In this document: positions 49,120 to 63,002 of the stretch, one piece after another | Layout: each line of letters begins with the position of its first letter | Numbering within the stretch: position 1 is the stretch's first letter | DNA from: an uncultured Pirellulales bacterium | GTDB lineage: Bacteria > Planctomycetota > Phycisphaerae > Sedimentisphaerales > CAYZTY01 | Direction: 5' to 3' | Assembly (NCBI GenBank): GCA_964444665.1 | Contig: CAYUIE010000003.1 | Location: forward strand, 234,990-298,989 | Length of the DNA stretch: 64,000 nucleotides | Notes under the pieces: model-generated | What the model was told of the DNA's origin: nothing | What the model saw: the letters and a program-made list of their open reading frames with translations, nothing else | Database searches by the model: none | Translations under genes and position numbers: made by a program

Positions 49120-49472
49120 GGGGGCGAATGGCTTCGACCGGACAGGTTGACGGATAAGTGGCATGTCCAGGACGCCGGTTGGCCTGGCTAATCATCCGGC
49201 ACAAAAATTAATTGGCAACTACCAGTTGCGTATGGCTGCGTAACTAACGCGGCCCGCCCTGTCGAGTCTTTCCTGCGGGCACGGCAAGGGCGCCAAACAG
49301 CAGGATAGCCCAGCCGGTTTTTTCGGGCCGGTGGGGTGAAAATTATCCGAAATAGCCGACTCAGGGGCCTGTCGTTCGGCATCTGATAAGGCGAAACTCA
49401 ATCGACCGACTAAACATGTAGAGGCTTATCCTGAAGTGTCACGGGACGGGGGTTCGAATCCCCCCGCCTCCA
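49120..49472 (+). ncRNA. ssrA: tmRNA; tag (A)GNYQLRMAA*
   Basis: 5' GGGGGCGAATGGCTTCGAC; tag ORF 49214-49243; 3' GGGGGTTCGAATCCCCCCGCCTCCA T-arm/acceptor. Confidence 0.96.
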
Positions 49473-49498
49473 TTCTCTTCGTTTCTCCAATTTTTTAC

Positions 49499-49565: not shown

Positions 49566-50657
49566 ATGGCATTTTTATTTGCACGGAAGCATCAGCGTGG
49601 CAAGACGTGGTATGTGGGTTACTACGTTGATGGCAAGCTCGTCCGCAAGAAGATTGGCCGAAGTAAAACACTGGCTGAGAAGGCCCGGGGGGACATTGAA
49701 GCCAGAATCGAGAGAGGTGAAGCAGGTCTTCTAAATAGAGACTACCCTATCCGTAGATTCTTCCAGGAGTATCTTGGACGGACAAAAACCAGGCACTCCG
49801 CATCCTACCACGACAGAAACAGAAGAGTCATAAAACAGTTCGAAAGATTTCTTGATGCCGAAAGACCATATCTGACCAGACTATCTCAACTAAAGCATGC
49901 CGTTATTGAAGCATACCAGCGGTTCAGATTGAATGAGACCGTCCCAAATAGCGGCAAACCCGTCAAAAAGAGAACCGTGAATATCGAGGTCAGCAGTCTT
50001 AAAACTTTCTTGAACAAAGCAGTAAAGTGGGATATGCTCTCCAGTAATCCCCTCGACAACGTGGAATACCTGAAAGAAAACGACAGCAAGAACATTCGAG
50101 CACTGACAGAAGAAGAAGTGCAAAAACTGCTTGAAGAAGCTAACGGCTGGTTCAGACCAGTACTTTTAACGGCACTTTACTCGGGCCTGAGAGAAGGGGA
50201 ATTAATAAATCTGGAGTGGGACGATGTTGACCTCAAACGTGGCGTGATACGAATACGCCGTAAGGTTGGCTGGGTACCCAAATCAAGCGGGAGAAGTATT
50301 CGTGAAAGGGACGTGGCCATCCCGAAGCAACTCGTGGAATTCCTGGAAAAGTACAAGAAACATCCGAGCTATGACGATGGCAAAGTGTTTCATAACAAGT
50401 TCGGTGATGAACTGAAGCCCGGGTTACGGAAGATCCTAATGAGGCTCACAAGAAGATGCGGCTTCCCCGAGGTTACGCAGTTCCATGCTCTAAGGCATAC
50501 ATACGCGACGCATCTGATTAAAGCGAGCAAGGATTTGCAGGTTGCAATGGACCAGTTAGGGCATGCTGATATTCGCACGACAATGCGGTACTCTGACATG
50601 ACCCTGGAGAGAAAGCGTAAAGCTGCAGAGAGGCTAAAATATGAAACAAGCAAGTGA
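49566..50657 (+). CDS. Tyrosine integrase (bacterial, arm-binding N-terminus)
   Basis: WYVGYYVDGKLVRK N-terminus; catalytic SGLREGE (R), FHALRHTYA (HxxR), LGHAD (H), TMRY (Y). Confidence 0.95.
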   Translation: MAFLFARKHQRGKTWYVGYYVDGKLVRKKIGRSKTLAEKARGDIEARIERGEAGLLNRDYPIRRFFQEYLGRTKTRHSASYHDRNRRVIKQFERFLDAERPYLTRLSQLKHAVIEAYQRFRLNETVPNSGKPVKKRTVNIEVSSLKTFLNKAVKWDMLSSNPLDNVEYLKENDSKNIRALTEEEVQKLLEEANGWFRPVLLTALYSGLREGELINLEWDDVDLKRGVIRIRRKVGWVPKSSGRSIRERDVAIPKQLVEFLEKYKKHPSYDDGKVFHNKFGDELKPGLRKILMRLTRRCGFPEVTQFHALRHTYATHLIKASKDLQVAMDQLGHADIRTTMRYSDMTLERKRKAAERLKYETSK

Positions 50658-50739: not shown

Positions 50740-52416
50740 ATGGCTAAAAACAAGTTAAACGATATTCCAAAAAAAGGTACACTTGAAATCAAAGTTGACA
50801 AGGCGGTGGTTAAGCACCTGAGCATCGGCCTATACCGCAACTATGCACTCGCCATAAAAGAATTGGTCTCTAACGCGTACGATGCAGGAGCAACAGAGGT
50901 GAAGATAAAACTGGATTTGAAGAGGAAGAGAATCGTAATTCGAGACAATGGGCGAGGCATGGACTACGATGACTTAGATAACGAATATCTCTGCATCGGC
51001 CTGCATAAAGCACCCTCCAGAAAGCCGGACGAATTGGGTCGAATGCGGATTGGCACTTTTGGGATTGGCTTTCTTGCACCTCTTCCATATTGCAAGCGAA
51101 TGACCGTAATTACTAAGAAACGGGGAAGCGACAGTGTCTTTCAGGCAACAATTAAGGCTACGAACTTCTTTAGCAAGGGCAATTGGGACATCAAAGACGA
51201 GAAAGTAGAATACGAAATCACAGACAGTGACCTTCCCCGAAAATCTGGTGAGACAATCGTGATTTTGGAGGAGATAGAGCCACAAATAGCGGAGGATTTA
51301 AATAGAAGCCGGAAGAAGGCAAAGGCCAAGATCGATCAGCTTGGTGGGTTCGATAAATTCAAATGGACTCTGTCTCAATACTGCCCGATCGAGTTTCCCC
51401 CTGAATGGAAGGAGTTGAGGAAATTCTTTGCTTATCCCGAAAGGATTCCGATGCGGCTGTGGCTTGATGGAAAAGAGCTTTTTAGAAATGTGCCTGAGGC
51501 GTGTGAGATTCTCGAAAAAGACGAGAAGGTCTTTGGGAATATTCACGTCAAATATGTGATATTGACACCTTACCACACTGTCAAGCCTGAGGAAGCAAGG
51601 GGTCTCCAGCTACGTCTCAGAGATGTGGCAATTGGATTCCCTCAGGATTTTGACGTCACAAAACTGGGAAGAGTCTTGGGAAAATTGAATCAGTTATGCG
51701 GAGAAGTCCACATTCTCAAAGGCCTAGACAATGCTCTAATGATTACAAGGGATACTTTTAACTATACCGAGGAAGTTTCCGAGCTGTACAAGTTCTTTAG
51801 AGAGAAGCTTACGAAGTGGAACAACTGGCTTGCAGACGAGGCAGATGCGACAAAGAAAGTGTATGAAGCCCTGCCCCCAGACAAAGCAGATGCAATAGCG
51901 GAGACTCTAAGGGAGGCAGATGTTGTTAAATTTCCAAAGGAGAGATTCCGCCTGCCTAAGTTTCCTATATCGAGCAGGCGCAAAGGTGAAATCTCCGCAC
52001 CTTCACAGCAACTAAAGGAGGCGCTCAAATCAAGACGAGGATTTTCTGTAGTATCTAGTAAGGCCAAGAGGACTAAAGACCAGCCTGCCATTGAGGTTGA
52101 TAAGAAGCGGAAATCCGTAACCGTTTACGACGAGCACCCTTCTTTTCTTGATTCTATTGAGGTAGAAAATAAGAAAATACTTGTGAGTTACGACAAATGG
52201 GAGGTCACTGGAACGCCCTATTCGATCTGCAAATACGACCGGAGACATAACAAGGCGGTGTTCAATACGGACCATCCACTCTTTAAAGCAAAAGTCAGTG
52301 ACAAAGTAGTGAAGCAGCTATCCTTGGGTATCTTGATATTGTTGGAAGGAACCAAGGAAAAAGAGCGAATTGTATCCAGATTCAATCGCATGCTTGAGGA
52401 TGTGTTCCAGGGGTAG
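50740..52416 (+). CDS. GHKL (Hsp90/MutL/MORC-like) ATPase
   Basis: KELVSNAYDA (N box), RDNGRGM (G1), RIGTFGIG (G2), followed by S5-like region. Confidence 0.88.
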   Translation: MAKNKLNDIPKKGTLEIKVDKAVVKHLSIGLYRNYALAIKELVSNAYDAGATEVKIKLDLKRKRIVIRDNGRGMDYDDLDNEYLCIGLHKAPSRKPDELGRMRIGTFGIGFLAPLPYCKRMTVITKKRGSDSVFQATIKATNFFSKGNWDIKDEKVEYEITDSDLPRKSGETIVILEEIEPQIAEDLNRSRKKAKAKIDQLGGFDKFKWTLSQYCPIEFPPEWKELRKFFAYPERIPMRLWLDGKELFRNVPEACEILEKDEKVFGNIHVKYVILTPYHTVKPEEARGLQLRLRDVAIGFPQDFDVTKLGRVLGKLNQLCGEVHILKGLDNALMITRDTFNYTEEVSELYKFFREKLTKWNNWLADEADATKKVYEALPPDKADAIAETLREADVVKFPKERFRLPKFPISSRRKGEISAPSQQLKEALKSRRGFSVVSSKAKRTKDQPAIEVDKKRKSVTVYDEHPSFLDSIEVENKKILVSYDKWEVTGTPYSICKYDRRHNKAVFNTDHPLFKAKVSDKVVKQLSLGILILLEGTKEKERIVSRFNRMLEDVFQG

Positions 52417-52422
52417 GGCTGA

Positions 52423-53151
52423 ATGGGTAACAGCAGTAGTTTGAAAGACGAGATGATCGAGAAATTATGGCTCCCAAAAGCTAAGGAGGCGTGGAGTATC
52501 ATTTGTCCCAGGCGGAAGAAACATGCTCGGATGTGTATGCTTACACTGTCGGATGGCCTTGACTTGGGCGAGGTGTCTAAGTTGGAGGAGGCGAATTTGA
52601 TTACGCGGGAAGACTCTGTGGGCTGGGTCTCTTCAATGAATAAGCGATGGAGGGTCGAAGCAGAAAATATTGGACTGGTCATTGACGGGCATGTATATGA
52701 TTCGTCATTTCTCACGCCATCTTGCCCACTGGTAAGCCATTTCCCTTTTGACATCCTCAATCTGGATTTTGGCTCCCAAGACGCCGACATGAATGAGGGA
52801 CGGACGGAAACCGAACTCATGGCGTTTGAAAAATTCATCGATCTTCAGGGACAAAATGGCAAACGCAAATTTCTCGTCATCTTCACTGTTCCAATCAACT
52901 CCTGCGATCTGGATTGCGCAAGGGTCGCGAGGGGATCTGACGCAACGAGAGTCAATGGCTGGGGCGGACTTAGATTGGACGAATACTCCGAGCATATTGC
53001 AGAACAAAGCGAAAAGACGGACTTCATCCAAGCTATTGCAGACAGTGTTATCCGGAAATATGGCTATAGTTGTAGTAACGGTTTAGTACCGCTATTATGT
53101 TCCGACTCTAACAGGATTCTGTTCTCCGTCGCAGGAGTCCTGGTGAGGTAG
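52423..53151 (+). CDS. Hypothetical protein, possibly degenerate SAM-methyltransferase-like fold
   Basis: Tightly packed in operon; MLTLSD and FPFDILNLDF segments; fold guess only. Confidence 0.55.
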   Translation: MGNSSSLKDEMIEKLWLPKAKEAWSIICPRRKKHARMCMLTLSDGLDLGEVSKLEEANLITREDSVGWVSSMNKRWRVEAENIGLVIDGHVYDSSFLTPSCPLVSHFPFDILNLDFGSQDADMNEGRTETELMAFEKFIDLQGQNGKRKFLVIFTVPINSCDLDCARVARGSDATRVNGWGGLRLDEYSEHIAEQSEKTDFIQAIADSVIRKYGYSCSNGLVPLLCSDSNRILFSVAGVLVR

Positions 53152-53154
53152 AAA

Positions 53155-53934
53155 ATGGCTAAGTTTAATATTGACAAATTGCCACCACTGGCGAGAAGCA
53201 TGTTTGAAAGCCAGTCGAAGTGGGCAGACAAAAACTGGAAAGATACCTTGAGATTGCGTGCGCGTGAAATCAATACTCTCTTGGATAACATAAGCATTTT
53301 CGATCTCTGGAAGAAAGTGCTTGGAGACGAATACGGTAAAATTGGGCAAGATTTGTTGCCTGAAATTTATATGGACGCCTATGTGTCAGTACATTTCGCT
53401 TGTATGGGTCTGTACAAGCAAAGCCATGTATGTTTGAGATCCGAACTAGAGAATGCTCTGCGTCTGGTCTACTTTGCAGTGCACCCTGTTGAGTATGGCT
53501 GGCGGCGGTCTGGGAAGGATTTCTTCAAAAAAAAGGATGTGTGGGCAGACGATTATCGCTATTTTCGGCAACTTGATGAGGTCCAGAAGTTTCAGCAGAT
53601 TTGTAAAAAGGATGGAAACAATGTTATTGTCTTTGACGCTGTAAGAAATCTTTATAGTAAACTATCTCAATATGTTCATACAGGGCCTACTACTTTTATA
53701 ACTACACCTAATCGCTTTGCTCCCAAATACAAAAAACCAGAATTCGGAAAATGGCTAAATGCCTTTAAGGAGACGCAGAAGTGTATAAATCTAATTCTTG
53801 TCTTGGGATTCACCGAAGATTTCAAGAAGTTGACCCTGCCTAAGAAGAAGGGAATCTTGAAAAAAACCGGTGACAAAAAAGTCAAGAAAGGTCTACGTAA
53901 ATCCATACCAGTAAAATTCGTGGGGGCTATCTGA
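53155..53934 (+). CDS. HEPN-like (DUF5677-type) helical protein
   Basis: LRSELE and LYSKLSQYVH motifs with helical character. Confidence 0.55.
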   Translation: MAKFNIDKLPPLARSMFESQSKWADKNWKDTLRLRAREINTLLDNISIFDLWKKVLGDEYGKIGQDLLPEIYMDAYVSVHFACMGLYKQSHVCLRSELENALRLVYFAVHPVEYGWRRSGKDFFKKKDVWADDYRYFRQLDEVQKFQQICKKDGNNVIVFDAVRNLYSKLSQYVHTGPTTFITTPNRFAPKYKKPEFGKWLNAFKETQKCINLILVLGFTEDFKKLTLPKKKGILKKTGDKKVKKGLRKSIPVKFVGAI

Positions 53935-53935
53935 T

Positions 53936-55009
53936 ATGATAATAAAGAAGGAAGATATCTTTAAGAAAGCTCCTTCGACAAGATATCAAGGTAGCAAGAG
54001 AAGGATTCTGCCTTGGCTTTACGATAATCTCAAAGACTTGGACTTCCACACAGTTTTTGATGGTTTTGGAGGAACTGGAAGTGTTAGTTATTTATTTAAG
54101 TTAATGGGTAAAAAAGTTACTTTCAATGATATATTAGCTTCGAATTATTTGGCTGGTGTAGCTTTGATTGAAAATGAGTCTGTCAAATTAGACCGAGATG
54201 ATGTTGATTTTATTTTACATGAAAATGGTTTTAATTATCCTAGTTTTATCGAGGACAATTTCAGGGGGACCTATTATTTGTCTCGGGAGAACAGATGGCT
54301 AGACGTTGTATCTCTTAACATCCGAATGCTTTCTCAAAAGTATAAAGGTGATATCTTAAGGAAAAAGCAGGCTTTAGCCAATCATATTTTATTTCAAGCT
54401 TGTTTATGTAAACGCCCCTTTAATCTTTTTCACAGAAAAAACTTATATTTGAGAACAGCACGAGTAAAAAGGAGTTTTGGAAATAAAAAAACATGGAACA
54501 CAAGTTTCCAAAGGTTGTTTCTAAAATTTAATGAAGAAATCTCTCAAAAGATTTTTTCTACTAAATTGAAGCATACCGCTCTTTGCGAAGATATTATGAA
54601 AGTCAGAAGGAAAAAGTTTGATCTTGTGTACTTAGATCCGCCGTATGCTAGGAAAAATGAAAGACATCCCAAAGATTATCATTCTTTATATCATTTTTTT
54701 GAAGGAATGCTTGATTATGATAATTGGGCGGAAAGAATTAATTGGAACACTAGAAATCATTGTTTAGTTCAGGAAAAGACAGGATGGGATAAGGATTCAA
54801 TCGAGGAGAATTTTGATAAATTATTTAGGAAATTTCAAAATTCGATTATAGTTGTTTCCTACGGTAGTCCAGGTGTCCCTTCCATTGATACAATCAGAAA
54901 GCTCCTGAATAAATACAAATCTGTGGTCTATATTAAACAAAGGCAGTATTGTTATAAATTGAACCGTAAAAATGGTGGTTTATACGAGGTTTTATTGATA
55001 GGCAAATAA
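53936..55009 (+). CDS. DNA adenine methyltransferase (Dam/D12 class)
   Basis: RYQGSK, FDGFGGTGSVS (motif I), FND, YLDPPY (motif IV). Confidence 0.92.
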   Translation: MIIKKEDIFKKAPSTRYQGSKRRILPWLYDNLKDLDFHTVFDGFGGTGSVSYLFKLMGKKVTFNDILASNYLAGVALIENESVKLDRDDVDFILHENGFNYPSFIEDNFRGTYYLSRENRWLDVVSLNIRMLSQKYKGDILRKKQALANHILFQACLCKRPFNLFHRKNLYLRTARVKRSFGNKKTWNTSFQRLFLKFNEEISQKIFSTKLKHTALCEDIMKVRRKKFDLVYLDPPYARKNERHPKDYHSLYHFFEGMLDYDNWAERINWNTRNHCLVQEKTGWDKDSIEENFDKLFRKFQNSIIVVSYGSPGVPSIDTIRKLLNKYKSVVYIKQRQYCYKLNRKNGGLYEVLLIGK

Positions 55010-55093: not shown

Positions 55094-55891
55094 TCACCAC
55101 TTCTCGCACATCCCCTGATATCCACAGTTTCCGCATAGATAGCCTTCGTTTGGATAATAGAAGCCGCCCCGTATTGCGTTTTCGACCTGTCCCGCAAGGC
55201 GGGAGAAACGATCGATGTCCGCCTGTGTCCTTTTCCCGTATAGCTGCTGGATCTTCGGCTGTTTGTTTCTTACCATTACGTCGAGACGGACACCTTTTTC
55301 TTCCTGGCCGTAGAGCGTGCGGAAGGCCAGCGAATAGGCAGTCAACTGAACATCCTTTTCTGCCGTGTTTTCCGGGAAGCTCCGTTTAGTCGTCTTGTGG
55401 TCGATGATGCACTGCTTATCGTCGATAAGGTCGATATATCCTTTAAGGGGAAGCTTGGTTCCAACCGTGTCAATGAGGAATTCCCGCTCGACTTCGACCG
55501 GCTGGACGCTTGGAGCAACCTGATCGAAGTATGCCTTCAGAAGATTCACGCCGTCATCTTTGAGCTTCCCAGGATTCTCTCCGTCTTTGAACTCCGTTTC
55601 CCCGACTTCACGTTCCCAGTACTCGCTGAAGAGTTCAGTAATATGAGAAACAATAATATCATGGCCGGTCTTTATTTTCTGCCTGTAGTTATCTTTAAGG
55701 GTATGATGAATCGTCCGGCCAAGAGTCAGGTCTCCTGTCGGCGGAGTCTTAATATCACATATGTATCGGAAAAAGTATGAAAGAGGGCAACGAATGTACA
55801 TCTTAAGCTGGGAGACGGACAGGTGGGGCCTTATCGTCGAGACGGTTCCCACCTGCCCATCTGAAGAGAATTCACTGTCGGCCTCTGTCAT
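55094..55891 (-). CDS. PD-(D/E)XK nuclease, RecB/AddB/Cas4-like with four-Cys cluster
   Basis: LSVSQLKMYIRCP, GRTIH, VERE, GYIDL, IIDHKT, QLTAY, C-terminal CGNCGYQGMC; start at MTEAD ATG 55891 after GGGGG. Confidence 0.88.
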   Translation of the reverse strand: MTEADSEFSSDGQVGTVSTIRPHLSVSQLKMYIRCPLSYFFRYICDIKTPPTGDLTLGRTIHHTLKDNYRQKIKTGHDIIVSHITELFSEYWEREVGETEFKDGENPGKLKDDGVNLLKAYFDQVAPSVQPVEVEREFLIDTVGTKLPLKGYIDLIDDKQCIIDHKTTKRSFPENTAEKDVQLTAYSLAFRTLYGQEEKGVRLDVMVRNKQPKIQQLYGKRTQADIDRFSRLAGQVENAIRGGFYYPNEGYLCGNCGYQGMCEKW

Positions 55892-56309
55892 TGTTCCCCC
55901 CGCCATTGTTATCCTGTGCCGGAGTCTCCGGTTCACCCTCGAAGACGTAGCGTTCAAAGAATCTCGCCGTCTCGATGGTCAGATCCTTCTTGGCATCAGG
56001 GTCAAGCTGAACGGGTGCAAGAATCTCGCTGGCGGATTTCAGGCACGACATCCTTGCGATCTGCCTGTCCTTGCCGTTTGGCCGGTATTGCGGCAGTTCG
56101 TTGCCGTTACCATTCACCGGCTCTATATCCGTCATGTTCTTGAAATTTCCGCTCTGCCTGAAGTCGTAGTCGATGGTTACGCCTTCCTGGAGCGTGTCAA
56201 AGTACTTGTCGTCCCAGACGCTGTATCTCTCTCCCCCGACCTGGACGGTCAGGTATTTCTGTCCCTTTCTGCTCTCGTTCTCCCAGACCTGCTCAATAGC
56301 CCCTCTCAT
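55872..56309 (-). CDS. Hypothetical, putative OB-fold ssDNA-binding protein of mobile elements
   Basis: Beta-rich N-terminus (KYLTVQVGGERYSVWD..FKNMTDI), RQIARMSCLKSA helix, acidic/Gly tail; GGAGGTG SD before ATG 56309. Confidence 0.55.
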   Translation of the reverse strand: MRGAIEQVWENESRKGQKYLTVQVGGERYSVWDDKYFDTLQEGVTIDYDFRQSGNFKNMTDIEPVNGNGNELPQYRPNGKDRQIARMSCLKSASEILAPVQLDPDAKKDLTIETARFFERYVFEGEPETPAQDNNGGGNNDRGRQ

Positions 56310-56328: not shown

Positions 56329-56592
56329 TCAAGGCAGCTCCTCAACGGTTGTCCCGTCTTCAAGAATTGATTTCGGGCAGAAGCGGCGACACTGCTTCAC
56401 CTCCTTGGAAGACGGAATCTTCTTCAACACGGCACACCAGATGCCTCTGCCGTTTTCAATTCCGCAGATGCAACCTTCACACTTTGCCGGGTATGGATCC
56501 TCCGATTTGTAGCTGCCTGCCATTACAGGAGGTTTCTCAGGTCGGCATTTTAGGGTATCGGAGAAAGGGTATGCGATTCGTGCTGTTGCCAT
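56329..56592 (-). CDS. Small Cys-rich hypothetical protein
   Basis: CEGCIC..WC..CRRFC; co-oriented between the recombinase and the SSB-like gene. Confidence 0.5.
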   Translation of the reverse strand: MATARIAYPFSDTLKCRPEKPPVMAGSYKSEDPYPAKCEGCICGIENGRGIWCAVLKKIPSSKEVKQCRRFCPKSILEDGTTVEELP

Positions 56593-56608: not shown

Positions 56609-57808
56609 TTAATCGTCGGTTTCAGGGTTTGTGAGTTCCCCGATCTTCCGTGCGAGTATGTCCCGGAAGTCCTGGTCCTGAATTAGCCTGTCCATAATTT
56701 GGTCGGCTTTGTTCCGCTCAAGGTTCTTCTTGATGATTTCACTAGCCGTTTTCTGATCTAACACTGTGCCACAACGGCTGCAAAATTTGTTCGTTGATGC
56801 GTTTTCTACCTTGCACCGTGGACAAGCTTTTGGCCTTAACTTGCCCTCCGGTCTCCGGCTCGTGTCAGTAGCAATACCGTAGGTCTTTAGCAGAGCGTTG
56901 TCAACGTCACGCCCCGAAAGGTGAACGTATATGGATGGCATGTTTGAGCCCTGGGTCCATCCGAAGACTTCATTCATCTGTGCTTCGGTGAGATGGTTGG
57001 CCAGGTGTGTCGCCCTGCTGTGGCGAAATGAATGCGGGTTGATTCTCTTCTTAATTCCAGCTCGTTTCGCTGCTGCATCCAGTATGTCGCGTATCCTCTT
57101 ATAACTCAGACGGGACGCTCTGTAGTCTTTTGAAACCCACAGGTATTCCTGTGGTTGTGACTTCTTAGGGTGAATGTTAAGCCAGTCGGTCATATATGGA
57201 GCTGATGTGATTATTAGTAATCTTCTTGTTCCTGTCTTTCCTGATACGATGATTCGAAAACCATGAATGTGTGGAAGAACATGCTTTATTCTCATCGATG
57301 CAATTTCCCCTATTCTGCACCCGGTCTCGTAAAGAATCGATACGAGGGCCCTGTCCCTGGGATCATGGCATGCCTCAATTAGCCTGGAAATGTCCTCTTC
57401 CGTAAGAAGTTCATCAGGAAGCCTGTTGTTGCAGTTACGGCGGCTGAGCTTAATCCACGCCGTTTCCTGCGGATCTTCATTAACTCCCCGGAGCCAGCGA
57501 TAGAATTTCTTTATCGTAAGCTTGAGGTCCTGTTTTGTCCATTCGGAATAACCGGACTGCTGAATGGTTCTTACGAGCGTCTCAATGTCAGCTTTAGTGG
57601 CATCAGCGAAGTCCTTTTTAAAGAGAGAAGCGAGGCACTTGAGATGGCCGACATATTTCTCCACGCGTGGAATGCTCAGTCCCTCGGAGAAACAGTAATC
57701 GGAAAAATCCAGAATGGCACGTTTGTTTTTCGGAGAGAAGTTAGACTTCTTGATTAGCTCTATTCTTCTCTCCAGCTTACGTTCATAGTTATGGAAGCTA
57801 TCATCCAT
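56609..57808 (-). CDS. Tyrosine recombinase of archaeal type with C-terminal zinc ribbon
   Basis: YSEWTKQDLKLTIKKFYRWL, ETGCRIGE (R), GKTG (K), PHSFRHSRAT (HxxR), FGW, YVHLSGRDVD (Y), CPRC..N..KFCSRCG. Confidence 0.92.
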   Translation of the reverse strand: MDDSFHNYERKLERRIELIKKSNFSPKNKRAILDFSDYCFSEGLSIPRVEKYVGHLKCLASLFKKDFADATKADIETLVRTIQQSGYSEWTKQDLKLTIKKFYRWLRGVNEDPQETAWIKLSRRNCNNRLPDELLTEEDISRLIEACHDPRDRALVSILYETGCRIGEIASMRIKHVLPHIHGFRIIVSGKTGTRRLLIITSAPYMTDWLNIHPKKSQPQEYLWVSKDYRASRLSYKRIRDILDAAAKRAGIKKRINPHSFRHSRATHLANHLTEAQMNEVFGWTQGSNMPSIYVHLSGRDVDNALLKTYGIATDTSRRPEGKLRPKACPRCKVENASTNKFCSRCGTVLDQKTASEIIKKNLERNKADQIMDRLIQDQDFRDILARKIGELTNPETDD

Positions 57809-58153
57809 GAAGATTCACCCACGCCAGGCTTTTAAGACCTGACGTGGGCACCGTGCTTTTCACCCCACGCCGAGGATGGGTGTTCAACGAAAAGTACAAC
57901 GCCCACAGAATTCAGACCTTAAAGCCTATGAGAAATAGTTAACTGAAGAGATATTTAAGCCTTGCGCTCGTAAGAATATTGGTTAGAAATGCAGGATAGA
58001 ACAAACTTTACCCATTCCGGAGTTCTGATCGCCCGGTCATTCTCACTTTCCATGCTGAAATATAGGTGAATGCCTTTTTTCATCCTTCTTTCCACATGTT
58101 GCGCACCATGCCAGTAAAGCGCAAATGGGTGCACCGAAATCGCGTCAAATTCC

Positions 58154-58702
58154 CTATTCGGCTACCATCGTTGCCGATAGCTTCTTTCGCACCCATAACG
58201 AGAACCACATCGAGAAGACACATAAGGCAAATGCCGGAGGGAGTACGACGAGTGTGTTAGCTACAGGGTTATCACATAGGAGGAAGCCCTGTACAGGCTC
58301 AGGAGAGCGTGCTCTACTGACAAGATACTCACCACAGAATGCGTTGCTTACTGGACTGTAAGGATTTGAATAGAAAATCCGTATGACACTGTAGGAAGGG
58401 CTCTGTGAATGGAAGAGATTCAGTCCTACCGGATTGATTACCAATGTCACGATGGCAACGGAGGTAACAATGATTAGTAATGCCGCGACAAGGTAATCCT
58501 TGAATGTGGCACGAAGCAGAAAGGCAACCCCAAATGGAATGGCAATGCAGTTTATGGCAGGAAGGATCATGCTGAACTGAAGGTTTATAGCTCCGAGAAA
58601 GTCCAGAAGAAGGACGAACCACAGCAAACCCGCAAGCAATGAGAATACCCACCAGAGTAGAAAGACTTTGCCCACAGTTCGGACGTTATTGATATCCTTC
58701 AT
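58154..58702 (-). CDS. Hypothetical membrane protein (about 4 TM)
   Basis: Hydrophobic segments; divergent from ORF 58758. Confidence 0.6.
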   Translation of the reverse strand: MKDINNVRTVGKVFLLWWVFSLLAGLLWFVLLLDFLGAINLQFSMILPAINCIAIPFGVAFLLRATFKDYLVAALLIIVTSVAIVTLVINPVGLNLFHSQSPSYSVIRIFYSNPYSPVSNAFCGEYLVSRARSPEPVQGFLLCDNPVANTLVVLPPAFALCVFSMWFSLWVRKKLSATMVAE

Positions 58703-58726
58703 GTTTTAGTATATAATATTGACGAA

Positions 58727-58741
58727 TTATTAAGCTATCGG
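58727..58741 (-). promoter_or_regulatory. Archaeal BRE+TATA-like motif (possibly bidirectional TATA)
   Basis: Minus strand CCGATAG-CTTAATAA starting 39 nt before ATG 58702; plus strand GACGAA-TTATTAAG with TATA at -31..-24 of ATG 58758. Confidence 0.5.
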
Positions 58742-58757
58742 CGAAAGGGACAGGAAG

Positions 58758-60281
58758 ATGAAGACTGGTTTGTTTCTGGCGCTATGCGTGTTTCTTACAC
58801 TCTTATCTATCACATCAGCTTCCTCTGGCAAGGGATTCCCTCCAAAATGGATCGAAGGAGATGCATATGTGACTCAGGGAGAAGTGATTGACGGAAAACC
58901 AGTAAGTGGGAGAGGTGTCAAGGTTTCTATAACACGTTCTAAGGGAGCCGAATCCAGTGGACCATATCACTACACTGTAAGAATTCAGCCAGGCGATCCA
59001 TGGGAACATGGTACAGCAAGCGGAAGGACAGTATGGATTGAGGGACATGGTATCAGCCAGATCATCATCTCTCTGCCGGTCGATACGGCGGAAATTACAA
59101 ATACCAGAGTCTTGATAATCGGAAAGACCAGAGAACAAACAATGAGGGAGCTACAGGCAATTATGACAGAGGGGTTCAAGGGGTATGCCGAGGAACAAAT
59201 AAGGCAAGCAGCGGACAAGGCCAAGGATATTGTGTTTGGAATTCCAACCTCCTACATTGAGTTGGAAGAACCGTTTGAACTAAGTCCTCGAGATGGTCTC
59301 ATTATACTGAAGTGTGATTTCGAAGGAGCCAATGTCAGTCAGCGTTTTGACAAAATTGAAGAAGTTGTCGTTTCCTTCGATCTAACCTATAAGAAACCAA
59401 GCAAGCATTATATAGTAATAACTCCAGACATCAGAGCTACAGGCAACCTAGTTGATACATCATTACCTCTGAGGGGGAGCATAGGTGGTTACTACCTCAT
59501 TGAATACAGACAGGAGTTCATTCTAACACATAGTGGTGACTTTGAGAGTCGTCAAAACTCGGAAGGTCACCCGTATTTTCCGCTGACTGTGGGCAACAAA
59601 TGGACATACGATACGCGTGTGCAAATGGTGGTTCCGGGGTTCATGGAGAACCCCCCTAAAGAGGGTTCAACTACCTTTGCGGTCGCAGATAAGAAAAGGG
59701 TCAGCGACAAAGACTGCGTAGTAATTAGAGAGGGTATGAACGAAAGCTACTACTATATTGAAGACGGGTGTGTGATGTTAGCTGGTTCGCGCGGATGGGC
59801 CAGCATTGAGGAGTTTCTGTCACAGCAGGGTCTAAAAATCAAGTTCCCCACGAAGTATTTGGAGAATTCACTAACAACCGGTAAGTCATGGATAAGGGAA
59901 CATATTATTGGCTCTCATCCTGATGCTAGTTTAGTATCACGAGTTTTGTGTGTCGAAACTGTTACTGTCCCTGCAGGAACATTCCAAGACGCCATCAAGA
60001 TTAAAAATCGTCTTTCTGTGGGTAGTATGGGAGAGGTAGTTGTTATTGAATGGTTGGTAAAAGGTGTTGGAAGAGTAAAGGGCTCTATGTTAAGCCGCTT
60101 GGGGGGAAATAATAGTGGTGCTATGCCCGTGCAAGTTAAAATGGAATACGAACTTAGCTCATATGATATTGCTATGGGCGATCACAAAAGGAATAGTGAA
60201 GAGAAAGATAAACAGCAACACAAGGAAAAAAAGATTGGATGCAGTTTCACCGATGAACTTTCACCCGGCGGAGTAGGTTAG
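58758..60281 (+). CDS. Secreted hypothetical protein, C-terminal DUF3108/TapB-like beta domain
   Basis: Signal peptide MKTGLFLALCVFLTLLSITSA; YFPLTVGNKWTY ... ETVTVPAGTFQDAIKI pattern. Confidence 0.65.
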   Translation: MKTGLFLALCVFLTLLSITSASSGKGFPPKWIEGDAYVTQGEVIDGKPVSGRGVKVSITRSKGAESSGPYHYTVRIQPGDPWEHGTASGRTVWIEGHGISQIIISLPVDTAEITNTRVLIIGKTREQTMRELQAIMTEGFKGYAEEQIRQAADKAKDIVFGIPTSYIELEEPFELSPRDGLIILKCDFEGANVSQRFDKIEEVVVSFDLTYKKPSKHYIVITPDIRATGNLVDTSLPLRGSIGGYYLIEYRQEFILTHSGDFESRQNSEGHPYFPLTVGNKWTYDTRVQMVVPGFMENPPKEGSTTFAVADKKRVSDKDCVVIREGMNESYYYIEDGCVMLAGSRGWASIEEFLSQQGLKIKFPTKYLENSLTTGKSWIREHIIGSHPDASLVSRVLCVETVTVPAGTFQDAIKIKNRLSVGSMGEVVVIEWLVKGVGRVKGSMLSRLGGNNSGAMPVQVKMEYELSSYDIAMGDHKRNSEEKDKQQHKEKKIGCSFTDELSPGGVG

Positions 60282-60332
60282 GCGTTTGTCGCTAGTTGGA
60301 TCGAAAGCCACAGGTCTTGGGTACGAAGTGGA

Positions 60333-60701
60333 TTGTGTGGCACAAAAGATGAAAAGCCTTGTTGGCTTCTGGGATATCTCGAAAGAGGTCCTAAACTTGA
60401 GTTCCATCTTACTTTTTGCGGTAGCGGGGGGTCTCCAAAAGTCCATCTACAACCAAGAATATGGTCTATAACGTTTGAGGGAAAGAGATCGTACTGGACA
60501 GAAGTTTGGGATAGCCGTTCGAGACGACGCTATACAGTCGTTGTGGATGTTGATTTCTGTGGTCGTGACAGATTCGAAGTTAGAAGTGGGGAATACTGGG
60601 AGACCTTCAGGGTTGTTGGCGACAAGAATTTGGAAGTAGTAACTGAGAGCAAGACTCACATTAAGGCTCGATGGCATCTGCATATCGAACGGATGTATTA
60701 A
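60333..60701 (+). CDS. Possible hypothetical protein or degraded gene
   Basis: Fills the gap between convergent genes; beta-rich C-terminal half; no family recognised. Confidence 0.3.
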   Translation: MCGTKDEKPCWLLGYLERGPKLEFHLTFCGSGGSPKVHLQPRIWSITFEGKRSYWTEVWDSRSRRRYTVVVDVDFCGRDRFEVRSGEYWETFRVVGDKNLEVVTESKTHIKARWHLHIERMY

Positions 60702-60735
60702 CTTGGGACTTAGCATTTCAGAGACGTTGATAAGG

Positions 60736-61776
60736 TTAGCTTGAAACATTGAATTCTCTCACCTTTCCTTGTATCGCAGCCCGTTTCGCTCGTATTAAAC
60801 CTGTCTCAACAAGTTTGTTGCAGTAGTCTGAATAGGTGCGGATGGCTATAGGCTTAATTGCCTTCGATGTGCATGTCCTGAGATACAGCCGCCATAGGTC
60901 ACCCGACAGAATTCCCGGATTTCCTGCGATTAGCTCAAACAACAGCTTATGGTGGTCGGTCAGCTTGTGAAGGATGAACGCCTTTTTCAGGGTCTTCGAG
61001 TTGTTCCACGCCTGCTTAACATGGGAAGTCATAATTGGACCCTGGCCGTCTCTTTCAGCGATATAAACGGCATTTTTGAGGGTCTGTATGGCCACCCTCG
61101 CATCACCGGTTGCAAGCTGTGCTATGAGACGCAAAAGACCCTCGTCGCATGTTCCTGGTGTAAGAGCATATTGCGCCCGATGATTGAGAATGCTAAACAA
61201 CTCATCGCAAGAGTAATCCTTAAAGAATACCTGAGCAGGATTGAGCCTGGATTTCACTCTTTCCTCAAGGCCGAAATAAACGTGCTCGGAATTGCAAGCA
61301 CAGATTAGACCAACTGTCGGAAGGTCCGAAAGGTTATATAGAATTGAATGCCTTTCCTTCGGAGGTGGCTGATTTATTTCATCGAGAATGATGACCAAAC
61401 GCTCCCTGGAAATATGCCTTTTGAGTCTCTCCAGTTTGAATGAGGTGCTGAGCTTATCGGCGCCCAGCATACGCAACTCAATCGCAATACGCTCGAGCAC
61501 CGAGAAGAAGGTCGGATTCTCCCAGCAGTTAACGTATATGCCTTTGATCCCTGCTTCCTGATGAAGCTTTTTTAAGATAAGTCGGGCTATGACGGTCTTG
61601 CCAGTGCCGGGTTTTCCGTGAAGCCAAGTGTGTATGGGCTTTCTGCCTTCGGTAATCGGCCGAAGGCACAGTGCAATCTCCTTCAAGTGAGATTCACGCT
61701 TGAGAGTTTCCTCTGGAATATGGCTTTCGCTGAAGAAATCTGGGTCCAGCAGAATTGGTTGTCCTTCAGGAGGCAT
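60736..61776 (-). CDS. cdc6: Orc1/Cdc6-family replication initiator (archaeal type)
   Basis: FSESHIPE..LKRESH.KEIA.CL.P N-terminus; Walker A GKPGTGKT; YVNC; Walker B IILDEI; Arg finger RVKSRL; F..YS.DEL..IL..RA; sensor II GDARVAI; C-terminal winged helix. Confidence 0.9.
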   Translation of the reverse strand: MPPEGQPILLDPDFFSESHIPEETLKRESHLKEIALCLRPITEGRKPIHTWLHGKPGTGKTVIARLILKKLHQEAGIKGIYVNCWENPTFFSVLERIAIELRMLGADKLSTSFKLERLKRHISRERLVIILDEINQPPPKERHSILYNLSDLPTVGLICACNSEHVYFGLEERVKSRLNPAQVFFKDYSCDELFSILNHRAQYALTPGTCDEGLLRLIAQLATGDARVAIQTLKNAVYIAERDGQGPIMTSHVKQAWNNSKTLKKAFILHKLTDHHKLLFELIAGNPGILSGDLWRLYLRTCTSKAIKPIAIRTYSDYCNKLVETGLIRAKRAAIQGKVREFNVSS

Positions 61777-61814: not shown

Positions 61815-61903
61815 ACTACACAGCTTGCGGTTTATGCGGATAAAGGTGGAGGTTTAGACAATAGTTCGGAATGTATAAACCGGGGATGATACGCTCTACT
61901 TTT

Positions 61904-62236
61904 CTACCGTGCGCGATATTTAAATATCCTCTCGTACTCTTTGTGTGAACACCAATCGAGAATTATGGCTATGATTTCTATGCCCTCCCGGCCCAGGGAA
62001 TACAGCAACCTCCATGCATTTGGAAGGTCATATTTGTACAGGTTATTTATGCTATACAGTTTTATATATCTCTTGGGTATCAATCGCTTTGGTATCGCAG
62101 TACCACAATCAGGTTTGAGCTTGATGTCCTCTATGGCCCGCAGAATGAATCTGTAAAGCTCTCTGAGTTCTTCGTTGGTTTTCAGTTTAAGAAAGTTCTT
62201 CTCTGCCTTTCGGTCAACGAAGTATACCTCCACCAT
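61904..62236 (-). CDS. RelE/ParE-superfamily toxin-like protein, archaeal style
   Basis: NLYKYDLPNAWRLLYSL...IILDWCSHKEYERIF; coupled to the upstream wHTH gene. Confidence 0.7.
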   Translation of the reverse strand: MVEVYFVDRKAEKNFLKLKTNEELRELYRFILRAIEDIKLKPDCGTAIPKRLIPKRYIKLYSINNLYKYDLPNAWRLLYSLGREGIEIIAIILDWCSHKEYERIFKYRAR

Positions 62237-62535
62237 TAAACCACCTTTAGATCAGGTCTCGATTTATACTCTCTGACCAGAAGAGGATTATATACCCAGA
62301 CTATCTTTCCCTCTCTGTCAGACATAACGAAGCCTTTCGCGTAGAAGTATTCGATTATCAGTTTAAGAGTGGGGTAGATGACTGTTCGTGGCAATGCTTT
62401 ATAGAGCTCGGTTATAGTACACGCTCCGAGCTGCTTTAGCGTCCCCTCTACCATCAGAACAGTGTCAAGTGTCGGAGAATGGGCATTTCTCCTCTTTTTT
62501 AATTCCATCGAACTGCATCTATCAAGCTTACTCAT
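62236..62535 (-). CDS. Small winged-helix protein, putative antitoxin/regulator, archaeal style
   Basis: HSPTLDTVLMVE..LK..G..T.TELYKALP...YPTL..I.EY...G......GKIVW.YNP; stop overlaps the RelE-like start. Confidence 0.65.
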   Translation of the reverse strand: MSKLDRCSSMELKKRRNAHSPTLDTVLMVEGTLKQLGACTITELYKALPRTVIYPTLKLIIEYFYAKGFVMSDREGKIVWVYNPLLVREYKSRPDLKVV

Positions 62536-62556
62536 GTATTTACATATAAATATTCA

Positions 62557-62575: not shown

Positions 62576-63002
62576 GAAGCGAGGATGATAAATCGCCCAA
62601 AATAAATGGACTAGGACTGGAAACCATCAGGTTAAGGTAGTAGCTCTACTTTGGGAAGGCCAGATGGTTCAGAGTTCTTACGTAAAACGAACTTTTCGCT
62701 ATTCACAAGCCTCTTGGATCAGAAACTGAGAACATTCAAAGAAAAGCGGCCAACTATGAGCATCGGATCGACAGTCCGAATCGGGGCTTTATAAGTGTTT
62801 GTGAATAAATGGCTTGTGATGCTGACCGAAAGATAGCCGTAATGTAACTGAGGCCCAGACAAGCATAGTTGTCGCGCGCTTTGTTGCGTATCTCAGTGGC
62901 TGGCTTAATCCATTCTCGTTTATGCTCAAACGCGGGTTGGTTAGGCTGGTACTTTCAGGTTGGATTAAAGGCCTTCAACCATTTGTACTGACGGCATATA
63001 TT

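What the first reader, a model, noticed from the sequence alone, without database searches (positions are those of the whole stretch)
60736..61776. Full-length Orc1/Cdc6 initiator in a bacterial genome
Seen: 346 aa with the complete Orc1/Cdc6 architecture (Walker A, Walker B LDEI with N rather than the usual D next, SRL arginine finger, GDAR sensor II, C-terminal wHTH) and no frameshift. Inference: it may initiate replication of the excised element, or be a passenger. No MCM helicase or primase is encoded in the window, so function in a bacterium would need a different helicase-loading partner.
Basis: partly seen in the sequence, partly recalled or inferred. Interest (0 to 1): 0.85.

Follow-up and report, generated by a model that had tools for sequence, protein, structure and literature searches.

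The report
Archaeal-type Orc1 on bacterial mobile island
An intact archaeal-type Orc1/Cdc6 DNA-binding ATPase sits in a bacterial chromosome as the signature gene of a widespread, apparently undescribed family of integrating mobile elements that carry anti-phage genes, which raises the question of how such a protein works without its usual MCM helicase.

Summary
ORF 60736-61776(-) encodes an intact 346-aa Orc1/Cdc6 protein: TIGR02928 is above its cutoff, all ATPase motifs are present, and the predicted fold matches DNA-bound archaeal Orc1 over its full length, winged helix included. The host is bacterial. A tmRNA lies 11 kb away, an independent contig repeats the same tmRNA-island junction, and a relative sits on a closed Aminicenantes chromosome.

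It is not a passenger. It belongs to a compact clade (227 representatives at E<=1e-30) under purifying selection (dN/dS 0.12-0.14). In 33 of 35 well-flanked loci it is linked to a tyrosine recombinase and/or a HerA/FtsK-like ATPase, usually with a small Cys-rich protein, an OB-fold protein and, in this clade, a Cas4-like nuclease. Variable defence genes flank this core. The window copy lacks the HerA pair.

A conserved 20-nt site precedes orc1 and the other two core operons. I found no ORB array, no unwinding element and no circular form.

Best reading (0.42): Orc1 is the element's site-specific initiator and regulator. A regulator-only role or a defence role remains possible. Novelty: new variant of a known kind.

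The parts
60736..61776 (-). orc1: 346-aa Orc1/Cdc6-family AAA+ ATPase with lid and C-terminal winged helix. It carries a D135N substitution after Walker B that is unique in the family.
61824..61843 (-). Strong copy of the conserved 20-nt site TTATCCGCATAAACCGCAAG, about 50-65 nt upstream of the orc1 ATG. It is present 63-89 nt upstream of orc1 in all 18 family copies scanned (weak in three).
58098..58117 (-). Weak second copy of the site (8.4 bits), ahead of the micro-ORF/integrase unit. In relatives without cargo, this copy lies 9-32 nt after the orc1 stop codon.
56570..56589 (-). Weak third copy of the site (8.6 bits) in the int2-p64 spacer. It is homologous to stronger copies at the same position in L002, L003, L013, L015, L017 and L028.
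57955..58053 (-). Conserved 32-codon micro-ORF (MESENDRAIRTPEWVKFVLSC...) between orc1 and the integrase.
57809..57958 (-). Conserved structured leader of about 150 nt (two hairpins) immediately upstream of int2. It is found only in the clade with int2-type integrases.
56609..57808 (-). int2: 399-aa tyrosine recombinase with a C-terminal zinc ribbon. It is a core partner of orc1.
56329..56523 (-). p64: small Cys-rich protein, probably zinc-binding, with no family match. It is a core gene.
55872..56309 (-). 145-aa protein with a predicted OB-fold beta-barrel plus helical hairpin and no Pfam family. It is found on contigs whose lengths match orc1-homologue contigs, which indicates co-occurrence.
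55094..55891 (-). PD-(D/E)XK / Cas4-like nuclease (the longest ORF extends to 55957). It is a core gene only in the clade with at least 60% Orc1 identity.
58024..60740 (.). Window-specific cargo insertion between orc1 and the integrase unit: a membrane protein (58154-58702, minus strand) and a secreted protein with a weak DUF3108-like match (58758-60281, plus strand).
61904..62535 (-). Two small overlapping genes upstream of orc1: p110 (61904-62236) and p99 (62236-62535, with a weak wHTH hit). They are shared with L003, L024 and L025 and could be a toxin-antitoxin pair or a regulator pair.
50740..55009 (+). Cargo that is a candidate defence system: a GHKL (HATPase_c_3) ATPase, two unknown proteins and a D12-class adenine methyltransferase.
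49566..50657 (+). int1: P4-like tyrosine integrase next to the tmRNA. It is shared with L033 (80% identity) but absent from L003.
49120..49475 (+). tmRNA gene (tag GNYQLRMAA). It marks the host as bacterial and forms the left edge of the island.
62909..62917 (+). Weak candidate for the island's right end: the 9-nt core TCCATTCTC, identical to the tmRNA 3' end at 49469. It lies in a 416-nt non-coding stretch next to a host response-regulator gene that is disrupted by IS66.

Best explanation
The ORF encodes a functional Orc1/Cdc6-type AAA+ winged-helix protein. It is the signature gene of a family of integrative mobile elements found in bacterial chromosomes.

The ancestral core of the element reads: a small protein, a HerA/FtsK-like ATPase, Orc1, a tyrosine recombinase, a Cys-rich p64 and an OB-fold protein. 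The window's clade adds a Cas4-like nuclease. Interchangeable anti-phage defence genes accumulate on both sides of the core and inside it.

The window carries a reduced copy that has lost the HerA pair. It lies in an island of about 13.4 kb between the tmRNA gene and a host response-regulator gene.

Proposed mechanism: ATP-bound Orc1 binds a conserved 20-bp site in front of its own gene and in front of the two other core operons. From there it autoregulates the core and, after excision by the recombinase, initiates replication of the circular element. In place of MCM it would recruit either the element's HerA/FtsK-like ring ATPase (where present) or the host's DnaB system.

Shown here: family membership, fold, bacterial location, conserved synteny, purifying selection, and the conserved sites.

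Inferred, not shown: that Orc1 binds those sites, that the element excises, and that Orc1 starts replication.
For: Family and fold:
- TIGR02928 is above its cutoff.
- The best PDB sequence and fold matches are origin-bound archaeal initiators.
- All ATPase residues and the C-terminal wHTH residues (R313, T314, G337, R340) are invariant or nearly so across 58 family members.

Selection: dN/dS is 0.14 and 0.12 in the two unsaturated pairs.

Bacterial location:
- tmRNA in the window.
- An independent tmRNA-linked copy in L033.
- A closed Aminicenantes chromosome, L005, that carries the small protein, DUF87, orc1, the integrase and the OB protein.

Synteny:
- Of 35 loci with flanks on both sides, 26 have a tyrosine recombinase, 21 have the DUF87/HerA ATPase, 14 have both and only 2 have neither.
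- The link persists down to 30% Orc1 identity.

Nature of the core:
- The partners are DNA-handling proteins: an OB fold, a Cas4-like exonuclease and a HerA/FtsK P-loop ATPase.
- No other replication gene is present.

Conserved sites: a 20-nt site lies upstream of orc1 in every locus. Further same-strand copies sit after orc1 and in the spacer after the integrase. They were found with a matrix trained only on the upstream copies, giving 120 hits against 50 in shuffled sequence.

Module swapping, as with rep or immunity modules:
- orc1 is 67% identical at nucleotide level where its flanks are 78-86%.
- L003 and L029 share a 93%-identical orc1 but carry different integrase types.

Precedent: archaeal integrated elements and ICEs use Cdc6/Orc1 as their replication protein (PMC6563490).
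Against: - There is no clustered ORB array and no AT-rich unwinding element. The sites are single, dispersed and promoter-proximal, which suits a transcription factor.
- No circular contig was found among about 100 loci.
- No convincing att repeat was found, only a 9-nt core.
- No MCM, primase or replicative helicase is in the island, and this copy also lacks the HerA partner.
- No Orc1-type initiator has been shown to work with a bacterial replisome.
- The window copy has a unique D135N change next to Walker B, of unknown effect.
- Many genomic islands never replicate autonomously.
Confidence: 0.42

Rival explanations
1. Regulator only. Orc1 is an ATP-dependent transcription factor of the element, comparable to the non-initiator Orc1-2 of Sulfolobales. 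It switches the three core operons on or off, for example to control excision or transfer, and plays no part in replication.
For: The 20-nt site lies at a fixed 63-89 nt upstream of the orc1 ATG. It recurs on the coding strand just ahead of the micro-ORF/integrase unit and ahead of the p64-OB-nuclease unit. There is no site cluster or AT-rich unwinding element and no circular form. There is precedent for Orc1 paralogues acting as global regulators through promoter motifs (PMC6061795 and PMC9738581, listed).
Against: Plasmid initiators commonly autoregulate as well, so promoter-proximal sites do not exclude initiation. The tight linkage to a HerA/FtsK ring ATPase, an OB-fold protein and a nuclease points to DNA transactions rather than to transcription alone. 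The binding protein has not been identified. Orthology to Orc1-2 was not tested.
Confidence: 0.25
2. Defence component. Orc1, with the HerA/FtsK-like ATPase where it is present, is itself an anti-invader system of the kind proposed for Orc/Cdc6-HerA 'capture' systems. Orc1 would localise on DNA and HerA would intercept foreign DNA. The recombinase would simply reflect the location in a mobile defence island.
For: Burroughs and Aravind describe mobile neighbourhoods that couple HerA/FtsK to Orc/CDC6 ATPases and infer an immunity role (PMC10853773). The orc1 loci are embedded among defence genes: RM systems, pAgo, TIR/SLATT, AbiE, GmrSD and GHKL-methyltransferase. The orc1 allele turns over faster than its flanks.
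Against: The defining inactive-REase insert between the AAA+ core and the wHTH is absent (346 aa, fold match over the full length). No active REase or other effector is constant across the family. There is no significant PADLOC match; the best is mad8 at 19 bits. The conserved binding sites lie in the element's own promoters. The window copy has no HerA gene.
Confidence: 0.12
3. Recombination accessory. Orc1 acts as an AAA+ helper of the adjacent tyrosine recombinase, handling target choice or control of excision and integration, as TnsC, MuB and IstB of the same AAA+ clade do for DDE transposases.
For: orc1 and a tyrosine recombinase are neighbours in 26 of 35 loci, often 140-550 nt apart. 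There is a weak PHROG match to a 'DNA transposition protein' (phrog_296, E 2e-10).
Against: The integrase type and orientation are freely exchanged next to nearly identical orc1 genes (L003 against L029), which argues against a co-adapted pair. Nine loci have orc1 without any recombinase nearby. No tyrosine recombinase is known to need such a helper. The protein scores far better against Orc1/Cdc6 models than against transposition-ATPase models.
Confidence: 0.08
4. Inert passenger or artefact. The gene is either a decaying fragment of archaeal DNA, or archaeal sequence joined to bacterial sequence by misassembly.
For: The contig is a metagenome assembly. Some relatives carry archaeal bin labels: Aenigmatarchaeota and Helarchaeota. 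The copy has a unique D135N change.
Against: The ORF is intact and all other motifs are conserved. dN/dS is 0.12-0.14. The same tmRNA-int1-island-orc1 arrangement appears in an independent contig from another sample. A relative lies on a closed 4.3-Mb bacterial chromosome. GC content is continuous across the junctions.
Confidence: 0.03

Closest known systems
Archaeal Orc1/Cdc6 initiators (S. solfataricus Orc1-1, PDB 2qby_A; A. pernix ORC1, PDB 2v1u_A)
   Same: Same domain order: AAA+ core with a helical insert, lid, and winged helix. Same catalytic motifs. The fold matches over the full length (TM 0.75-0.80), sequence identity is 29-30%, and TIGR02928 is above its cutoff.
   Different: About 40 aa shorter. 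It falls far below the cutoffs of all four curated archaeal Orc1 models in NCBIfam (for example 129.7 bits against 501). It is encoded in bacteria, with no MCM and no ORB/DUE origin next to it. Its linked genes are a tyrosine recombinase, a HerA/FtsK-like ATPase and an OB-fold protein.
Archaeal integrated elements and ICEs that encode Cdc6/Orc1 (e.g. thaumarchaeal NitGar-E3, NitVie-E3, NitAQ6f-E1; PMC6563490)
   Same: An integrase plus Orc1 as the only replication-type gene on an integrated element. Cargo includes defence-type genes.
   Different: Those hosts are archaea, which supply MCM. Here the host is bacterial. The specific core of DUF87, p64, OB protein and Cas4-like nuclease, and the 20-nt site, are not described there.
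HerA/FtsK-Orc/CDC6 'capture' neighbourhoods (Burroughs and Aravind 2024, PMC10853773)
   Same: Mobile bacterial neighbourhoods that pair an Orc/Cdc6-clade ATPase carrying a C-terminal wHTH with a HerA/FtsK ATPase, in a defence-island setting.
   Different: Their Orc/CDC6 always has an inactive REase inserted before the wHTH and comes with an active REase. This protein has no insert. Their text mentions no recombinase, OB protein or p64 in these neighbourhoods. The window copy has no HerA gene.
Small integrative conjugative or mobilisable elements built from int, xis, rep and an FtsK-like translocase: actinomycete AICEs (from my own knowledge), and the Firmicute operons with HerA/FtsK, a D5 helicase, Xis and a Y-recombinase (PMC10853773)
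   Same: Same functional layout: a tyrosine recombinase, one replication-type protein and one FtsK/HerA-family ring ATPase, with integration next to a tRNA-like gene.
   Different: The replication slot is filled by an archaeal-type Orc1, where those elements have a rolling-circle Rep, a prim-pol or an SF3 helicase. Transfer, excision and replication are all untested here.
Sulfolobales Orc1-2 DNA-damage regulator (PMC6061795, PMC9738581)
   Same: An Orc1 paralogue that acts through a short promoter motif and not at an origin. It is a model for the promoter-proximal sites seen here.
   Different: Orc1-2 is a chromosomal archaeal regulator of host genes. There is no evidence of orthology, and the motifs are unrelated.

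Membership tests
Orc1/Cdc6 family (TIGR02928) | Full-length match to the family HMM above its curated cutoff | tested here: met
   187 bits against a cutoff of 181.3, covering residues 11-333
Orc1/Cdc6 family (TIGR02928) | AAA+ motifs: Walker A, Walker B, sensor 1, box VII arginines, sensor II | tested here: met
   G54/G57/G59/K60/T61, L131/D132/E133/I134, N162, R173/S176/R177 and GDAR 224-227 are invariant or at least 90% conserved in 58 sequences. Only D135N deviates.
Orc1/Cdc6 family (TIGR02928) | Cdc6-type lid domain | tested here: met
   PF22703 scores 59.5 bits against a cutoff of 27
Orc1/Cdc6 family (TIGR02928) | Helical insert between beta-2 and beta-3 of the AAA+ core (initiator-specific motif) | tested here: met
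   In the model, helices 90-100 and 111-122 lie between strands 78-83 and 127-132. The fold match to 2qby_A and 2v1u_A covers the full length. DNA contact itself was not tested.
Orc1/Cdc6 family (TIGR02928) | C-terminal winged-helix DNA-binding domain | tested here: met
   The sequence HMM PF09079 is just below its cutoff (22.3 against 25.1). The model has helices 274-285, 291-304 and 312-324 plus the hairpin 328-332/340-344, and it aligns to the wH of DNA-bound Orc1. R313, T314, G337 and R340 are invariant.
Archaeal chromosomal Orc1 orthologous groups (NCBIfam NF001623/4/5/6) | Score above the cutoff of one of these curated models | tested here: not met
   151.6 against 354, 129.7 against 501, 116.4 against 417 and 89.6 against 311
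Archaeal-type replication origin module | Several ORB repeats flanking an AT-rich unwinding element next to orc1 | tested here: not met
   There is one strong site upstream of orc1. The other copies are 1-5 kb away and promoter-proximal. There is no AT-rich dip at 60-62.6 kb.
Archaeal-type replication origin module | MCM helicase available for loading | tested here: not met
   No MCM match among the island genes or the window's large ORFs. The host is bacterial.
Archaeal-type replication origin module | Origin activity, meaning autonomous replication that depends on Orc1 | not testable with these tools
   This needs a plasmid-maintenance or marker-frequency experiment. No circular contigs were seen.
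HerA/FtsK-Orc/CDC6 conflict systems (PMC10853773) | Inactive REase domain inserted between the AAA+ core and the C-terminal wHTH | tested here: not met
   346 aa with the lid joined directly to the wH, and a full-length match to plain Orc1
HerA/FtsK-Orc/CDC6 conflict systems (PMC10853773) | HerA/FtsK ATPase gene coupled to the Orc/CDC6 gene | tested here: not met
   Absent from the window and the 7.7 kb beyond it. Present in 21 of 35 related loci.
Integrative mobile element / genomic island | Site-specific recombinase gene(s) within the element | tested here: met
   int1 at 49566-50657 and int2 at 56609-57808, both PF00589
Integrative mobile element / genomic island | Insertion next to a tRNA-like gene, with variable presence between genomes | tested here: met
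   The island starts at the tmRNA 3' end. The block 50723-62586 recurs in L003 in a different flank, and in L033 at the same tmRNA site with part of the cargo deleted.
Integrative mobile element / genomic island | Flanking att direct repeats | tested here: inconclusive
   Only a 9-nt core, TCCATTCTC, at 49469 and 62909. No repeat longer than 12 nt.
STAND NTPases (AAA_16 / NB-ARC hits) | NTPase fused to a sensor repeat array and/or an effector domain | tested here: not met
   There are no extra domains. The NB-ARC, NACHT and AAA_16 hits cover only the P-loop core and are weaker than the Orc1/Cdc6 hits.
Transposition AAA+ helpers (TnsC / MuB / IstB) | Partnership with a DDE transposase of the same element | tested here: not met
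   The partner is a tyrosine recombinase. The only DDE gene nearby is an unrelated IS66 transposase outside the island.

The most novel reading that the evidence does not exclude
This is a family of integrative elements, possibly spanning both prokaryotic domains, in which an Orc1-type initiator works without MCM. It would recognise a 20-bp site and load or recruit a HerA/FtsK-family ring ATPase (or the host's DnaB) to replicate or transfer the excised element in bacteria. That would make it a third kind of initiator-motor pairing beside DnaA-DnaB and Orc1-MCM.
Probability: 0.15. Interest if true: 0.85.

Novelty: new variant of a known kind. Interest (0 to 1): 0.6.

Why it matters
Orc1/Cdc6 is treated as the archaeal and eukaryotic initiator and is even used as an 'archaeal chromosome marker' in metagenome pipelines (TIGR02928 in bioRxiv 10.64898/2026.05.20.726742).

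A conserved, selected and syntenic Orc1 clade in bacterial chromosomes shows that this marker can mislead.

It also gives a concrete system in which to ask how an Orc1-type protein functions without MCM.

Separately, the elements are carriers of diverse anti-phage systems in poorly studied phyla (Planctomycetota, Latescibacterota, Aminicenantes). The conserved core could therefore serve as a flag for finding new defence cargo.

Tried and rejected
- **tmRNA-derived att repeats.** A short-word BLAST of the tmRNA 3' region against the window plus 7.7 kb beyond it found nothing longer than 12 nt. The 19-nt hit is only T-arm similarity to tRNA-Ser. What remains is a 9-nt core at 62909.
- **ORB arrays.** The strict motif occurs once per locus. 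The weight-matrix scan found only dispersed, promoter-proximal copies.
- **Matching C/G variant between the site copies of one locus, as a sign of co-evolution with Orc1.** It looked promising in five loci but is broken in L022, L002 and L003, so I dropped it.
- **The 27-nt inverted repeat bracketing the orc1 segment (57950-57976 and 61902-61928).** It is 74% complementary, no better than many chance pairs in the same region.
- **Circular contigs.** None among about 100 loci.
- **Viral origin.** No close relative in IMG/VR. The only PHROG match is a family of unknown function.
- **Known defence systems.** No significant PADLOC hit for Orc1, int2, p110 or p99.
- **Domain-diagnostic RNAs or tRNAs in long related loci.** None found, so the domain of the Aenigmatarchaeota-labelled contig L004 is unresolved.
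- **p64 as an excisionase.** No Pfam or PHROG match. It is Cys-rich and shows no sign of an HTH.
- **Host phylum from GlnA.** Ambiguous between Planctomycetota and Syntrophales-type bacteria at about 72-75% identity.
- **Literature.** Seven completed full-text searches (an eighth was rejected for its syntax) found no description of this bacterial family.
- **Not done.** A taxon-labelled phylogeny against archaeal chromosomal and mobile-element Orc1 proteins, because the large protein libraries carry no taxonomy.
Full report
**1. The observation**

ORF 60736-61776 on the minus strand is an uninterrupted 346-codon frame. It matches the NCBIfam model TIGR02928 (orc1/cdc6 family replication initiation protein) at 187 bits, above the curated cutoff of 181.3, over residues 11-333. 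In Pfam it matches Cdc6_lid (59.5 bits) and several AAA core models. The Cdc6_C winged-helix model falls just short of its cutoff (22.3 against 25.1). Its best relatives among solved structures are S. solfataricus Orc1-1 (2qby_A, E 1e-32) and A. pernix ORC1 (2v1u_A, E 3e-31), aligned end to end.

An AlphaFold model built on 58 homologues has a mean pLDDT of 87.8. It shows the AAA+ core with a two-helix insert, the lid, and a C-terminal domain of three helices plus a beta-hairpin. Foldseek places it on DNA-bound archaeal Orc1 structures over about 350 columns (TM 0.75-0.80), ahead of eukaryotic ORC/Cdc6 and well ahead of RuvB.

The residue after LDEI is N135, whereas 57 of 58 family members have D.

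**2. The host is a bacterium and the linkage is real**

- A full-length tmRNA lies at 49120-49475 (Rfam 170.7 bits; ARAGORN tag GNYQLRMAA).
- The rest of the window encodes bacterial-type two-component kinases, O-antigen and glycosyltransferase genes, HisA, NadE and GlnA.
- Every named relative of GlnA is bacterial: Syntrophales, Planctomycetota/Brocadiia and Deltaproteobacteria at about 72-75% identity. The phylum stays open.
- The window is part of a 336-kb JGI contig, and GC content is continuous across the island.
- An independent contig, L033, carries tmRNA (tag GNYQLQMAA), an int1 homologue (80%), the start of the same GHKL gene, the nuclease, the OB protein, p64, an integrase and an orc1. 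This rules out a chimeric join.
- A 41%-identical relative, with the same partners, lies on a closed 4.3-Mb chromosome labelled Aminicenantes (L005).

**3. What surrounds it in the window**

Reading from the tmRNA, the order is:
- int1, a P4-like integrase;
- a GHKL ATPase, two unknown proteins and a D12 methyltransferase, which together look like a restriction-modification-type defence cargo;
- a Cas4-like PD-(D/E)XK nuclease;
- a 145-aa protein;
- the 64-aa Cys-rich p64;
- int2, a 399-aa tyrosine recombinase with a zinc ribbon;
- two cargo genes;
- orc1;
- two small overlapping genes;
- 416 nt of non-coding DNA;
- a host response-regulator gene split by an IS66 element, with gas-vesicle genes beyond the window.

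The Phycisphaerae-labelled contig L003 shares DNA with window 50723-58023 (86%), 60741-61755 (67%, orc1 only) and 61910-62586 (78%). It lacks int1 and the tmRNA, and it lacks the 2.7-kb cargo at 58024-60740.

**4. The family and its constant companions**

The protein belongs to a compact clade of about 346 aa. There are 496 relatives at 90% clustering, and 227 representatives at 50% clustering score E<=1e-30. Bin labels include Planctomycetota, Phycisphaerae, Pirellulales, Latescibacterota, Aminicenantes and 'bacterium'. They also include Aenigmatarchaeota and Helarchaeota, on contigs whose domain I could not verify.

I fetched about 100 loci and compared them at the protein level.
- Among 43 non-redundant loci with at least 3 kb downstream, a tyrosine recombinase follows orc1 within 6 kb in 28 and the 145-aa protein is present in 21. 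The nuclease is present in 8, all of them in the clade with at least 60% Orc1 identity.
- A specific DUF87/HerA-FtsK-like ATPase of about 650-690 aa, together with a small partner protein, is also linked to orc1. In at least 13 loci it sits directly upstream on the same strand.
- Of 35 loci with adequate flanks on both sides, 26 have the recombinase, 21 have the HerA-like ATPase, 14 have both and only 2 have neither.
- Compact versions (L037, L055, L086, L098) read: small protein, DUF87, orc1, recombinase, p64 where detectable, OB protein. This persists down to 30% Orc1 identity.
- The window's copy has lost the DUF87 pair.
- The 145-aa protein has no Pfam family. It is predicted as a five-stranded barrel plus a helical hairpin, and its only (weak) fold matches are OB-fold nucleic-acid binders.

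Around and inside this core the genes differ from locus to locus, and they are overwhelmingly defence systems: type I and II RM, pAgo, TIR/SLATT, AbiE, GmrSD, BrxC-like and OLD.

**5. Selection and modularity**

All catalytic residues and the conserved C-terminal wHTH residues are invariant or nearly so. The two orc1 pairs with unsaturated synonymous divergence give dN/dS of 0.14 and 0.12.

The core is mosaic. orc1 is the most diverged segment between otherwise similar islands. L003 and L029 share a 93%-identical orc1 but carry different integrase types in opposite orientations.

**6. Conserved DNA**

A 20-nt site, TTATCSGCAYAAACNGCAAG, lies 63-89 nt upstream of orc1 in all 18 family copies scanned (the window and 17 loci). 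It is weak (9-11 bits) in three of the more distant ones.

A weight matrix trained only on those upstream copies also finds same-strand copies in two other places:
- 9-32 nt after the orc1 stop, ahead of a conserved 32-codon micro-ORF and the integrase;
- in the spacer after the integrase, ahead of the following core genes.

The scan gave 120 hits against 50 in shuffled sequence.

In the window the copies are at 61824-61843 (strong), 58098-58117 (weak) and 56570-56589 (weak). The cargo was inserted between orc1 and the second copy. The strict motif is single-copy. There is no cluster of sites and no AT-rich element, so this is not a classical ORB/DUE origin.

A two-hairpin leader of about 150 nt precedes int2, with 9 of 30 pairs showing compensatory changes. 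It is restricted to eight loci of the int2 clade.

**7. Interpretation**

The data establish that orc1 is a functional core gene of a mobile-element family resident in bacteria. It is not a passenger and not an artefact.

The most economical mechanism is that Orc1 is the element's sequence-specific, ATP-dependent DNA-binding protein. It would recognise the 20-bp sites, regulate the core, and initiate replication of the excised circle. This matches the layout of small integrative conjugative elements (integrase, one replication protein, one FtsK/HerA-type ATPase) and of archaeal integrated elements that use Cdc6/Orc1.

The step from binding to replication is inferred only. The promoter-proximal layout of the sites, the absence of an unwinding element, the absence of circular contigs, the weak att evidence and the lack of any helicase in this copy all leave a regulator-only role nearly as likely. 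A defence role of the kind proposed for Orc/Cdc6-HerA systems is possible. However, this protein lacks the REase insert that defines those systems, and it gives no PADLOC match.

**8. Novelty**

Automated pipelines already name such bacterial proteins 'Cdc6/Cdc18 family'. Orc/Cdc6-clade ATPases in bacterial conflict systems are known. Orc1-bearing integrated elements are known in archaea.

I found no description of this plain Orc1 clade with its core of recombinase, HerA-like ATPase, OB protein and nuclease, nor of its 20-nt site, in bacteria (seven completed literature searches). I therefore class it as a new variant of a known kind, of moderate to high interest.

Noticed in passing
window 57809-57958 (minus strand); also L002, L003, L013, L014, L015, L022, L092: A conserved structured leader of about 150 nt lies directly upstream of the int2-type integrase. 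It has two hairpins, and 9 of 30 pairs show compensatory changes. It could be a regulatory RNA, a recombination site or a DNA hairpin. It matches no Rfam family.
   Followed up: partly
window 57955-58053 (minus strand): A conserved 32-codon micro-ORF (…TPEWVKFVLSC…) lies between orc1 and the integrase. It is present even in L004, which lacks the integrase.
   Followed up: partly
window 50740-55009: A four-gene cargo: a GHKL/HATPase_c_3 ATPase, a 242-aa and a 259-aa unknown protein, and a D12 adenine methyltransferase. It is 80-90% conserved in L003 and truncated in L033. PADLOC gives only partial REase_II/MzaB-like and MTase_II hits, so it may be an uncharacterised restriction-modification-like defence system.
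   Followed up: partly
window 61374 region (residue 135 of the Orc1): The D135N substitution in the DEID box is unique among 58 family members. Its effect on ATP hydrolysis is unknown. It might lock or weaken this copy, which has also lost the HerA partner.
   Followed up: partly
window 63003-63182 and 63214-64000 (continuing in L001 7136-8563 and 6848-7087): An IS66-family transposase has split a host response-regulator gene. A gas-vesicle (gvp) gene cluster follows just beyond the window end.
   Followed up: no
window 61904-62535 (minus strand): Two overlapping small genes lie upstream of orc1: p99, with a sub-threshold wHTH repressor-like hit, and p110. They are 74-83% conserved in L003, L024 and L025 and take the place occupied by the DUF87 pair in other elements. 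They could be a toxin-antitoxin pair or a regulator pair.
   Followed up: partly
window 58154-60281: The cargo inserted between orc1 and the integrase unit encodes a multi-pass membrane protein and a secreted protein of about 470-507 aa with a signal peptide and a weak DUF3108-like match. Unlike most cargo in this element family, it does not look defence-related.
   Followed up: no
L016 2906-3979 and 10001-11044: One related locus carries two Orc1/Cdc6 paralogues 6 kb apart on the same element-like region, next to a type I restriction subunit and the DUF87 pair.
   Followed up: no
L003 678-8620: Next to the L003 copy lies a cluster of genes: an OLD-family ATPase, a radical-SAM protein, an adenosine deaminase, a NUDIX-deoxynucleoside kinase fusion and a PRTase-CE protein. 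It looks like a nucleotide-modifying or nucleotide-depleting defence system.
   Followed up: no
L004 (Aenigmatarchaeota-labelled contig JAFGSV010000024.1) 9934-11400: This contig has the orc1 (64% identity), both flanking 20-nt sites and the micro-ORF, but no recombinase, OB protein or nuclease. Its neighbours (RelA/SpoT, ABC transporter, radical SAM) do not reveal the domain. Whether the family truly occurs in archaea is unresolved.
   Followed up: partly
general (TIGR02928): At least one metagenome study uses TIGR02928 as an 'archaeal chromosomal marker'. This bacterial clade scores above the model's cutoff and would produce false archaeal or misassembly flags.
   Followed up: no
window 8813-41511: A large surface-polysaccharide locus: UDP-glucose dehydrogenase, many GT4 glycosyltransferases, Wzy-like ligase, MatE-type flippase, pyruvyl transferase and a TIGR03790 protein. 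It includes two ORFs of 802 and 669 aa with no family match.
   Followed up: no
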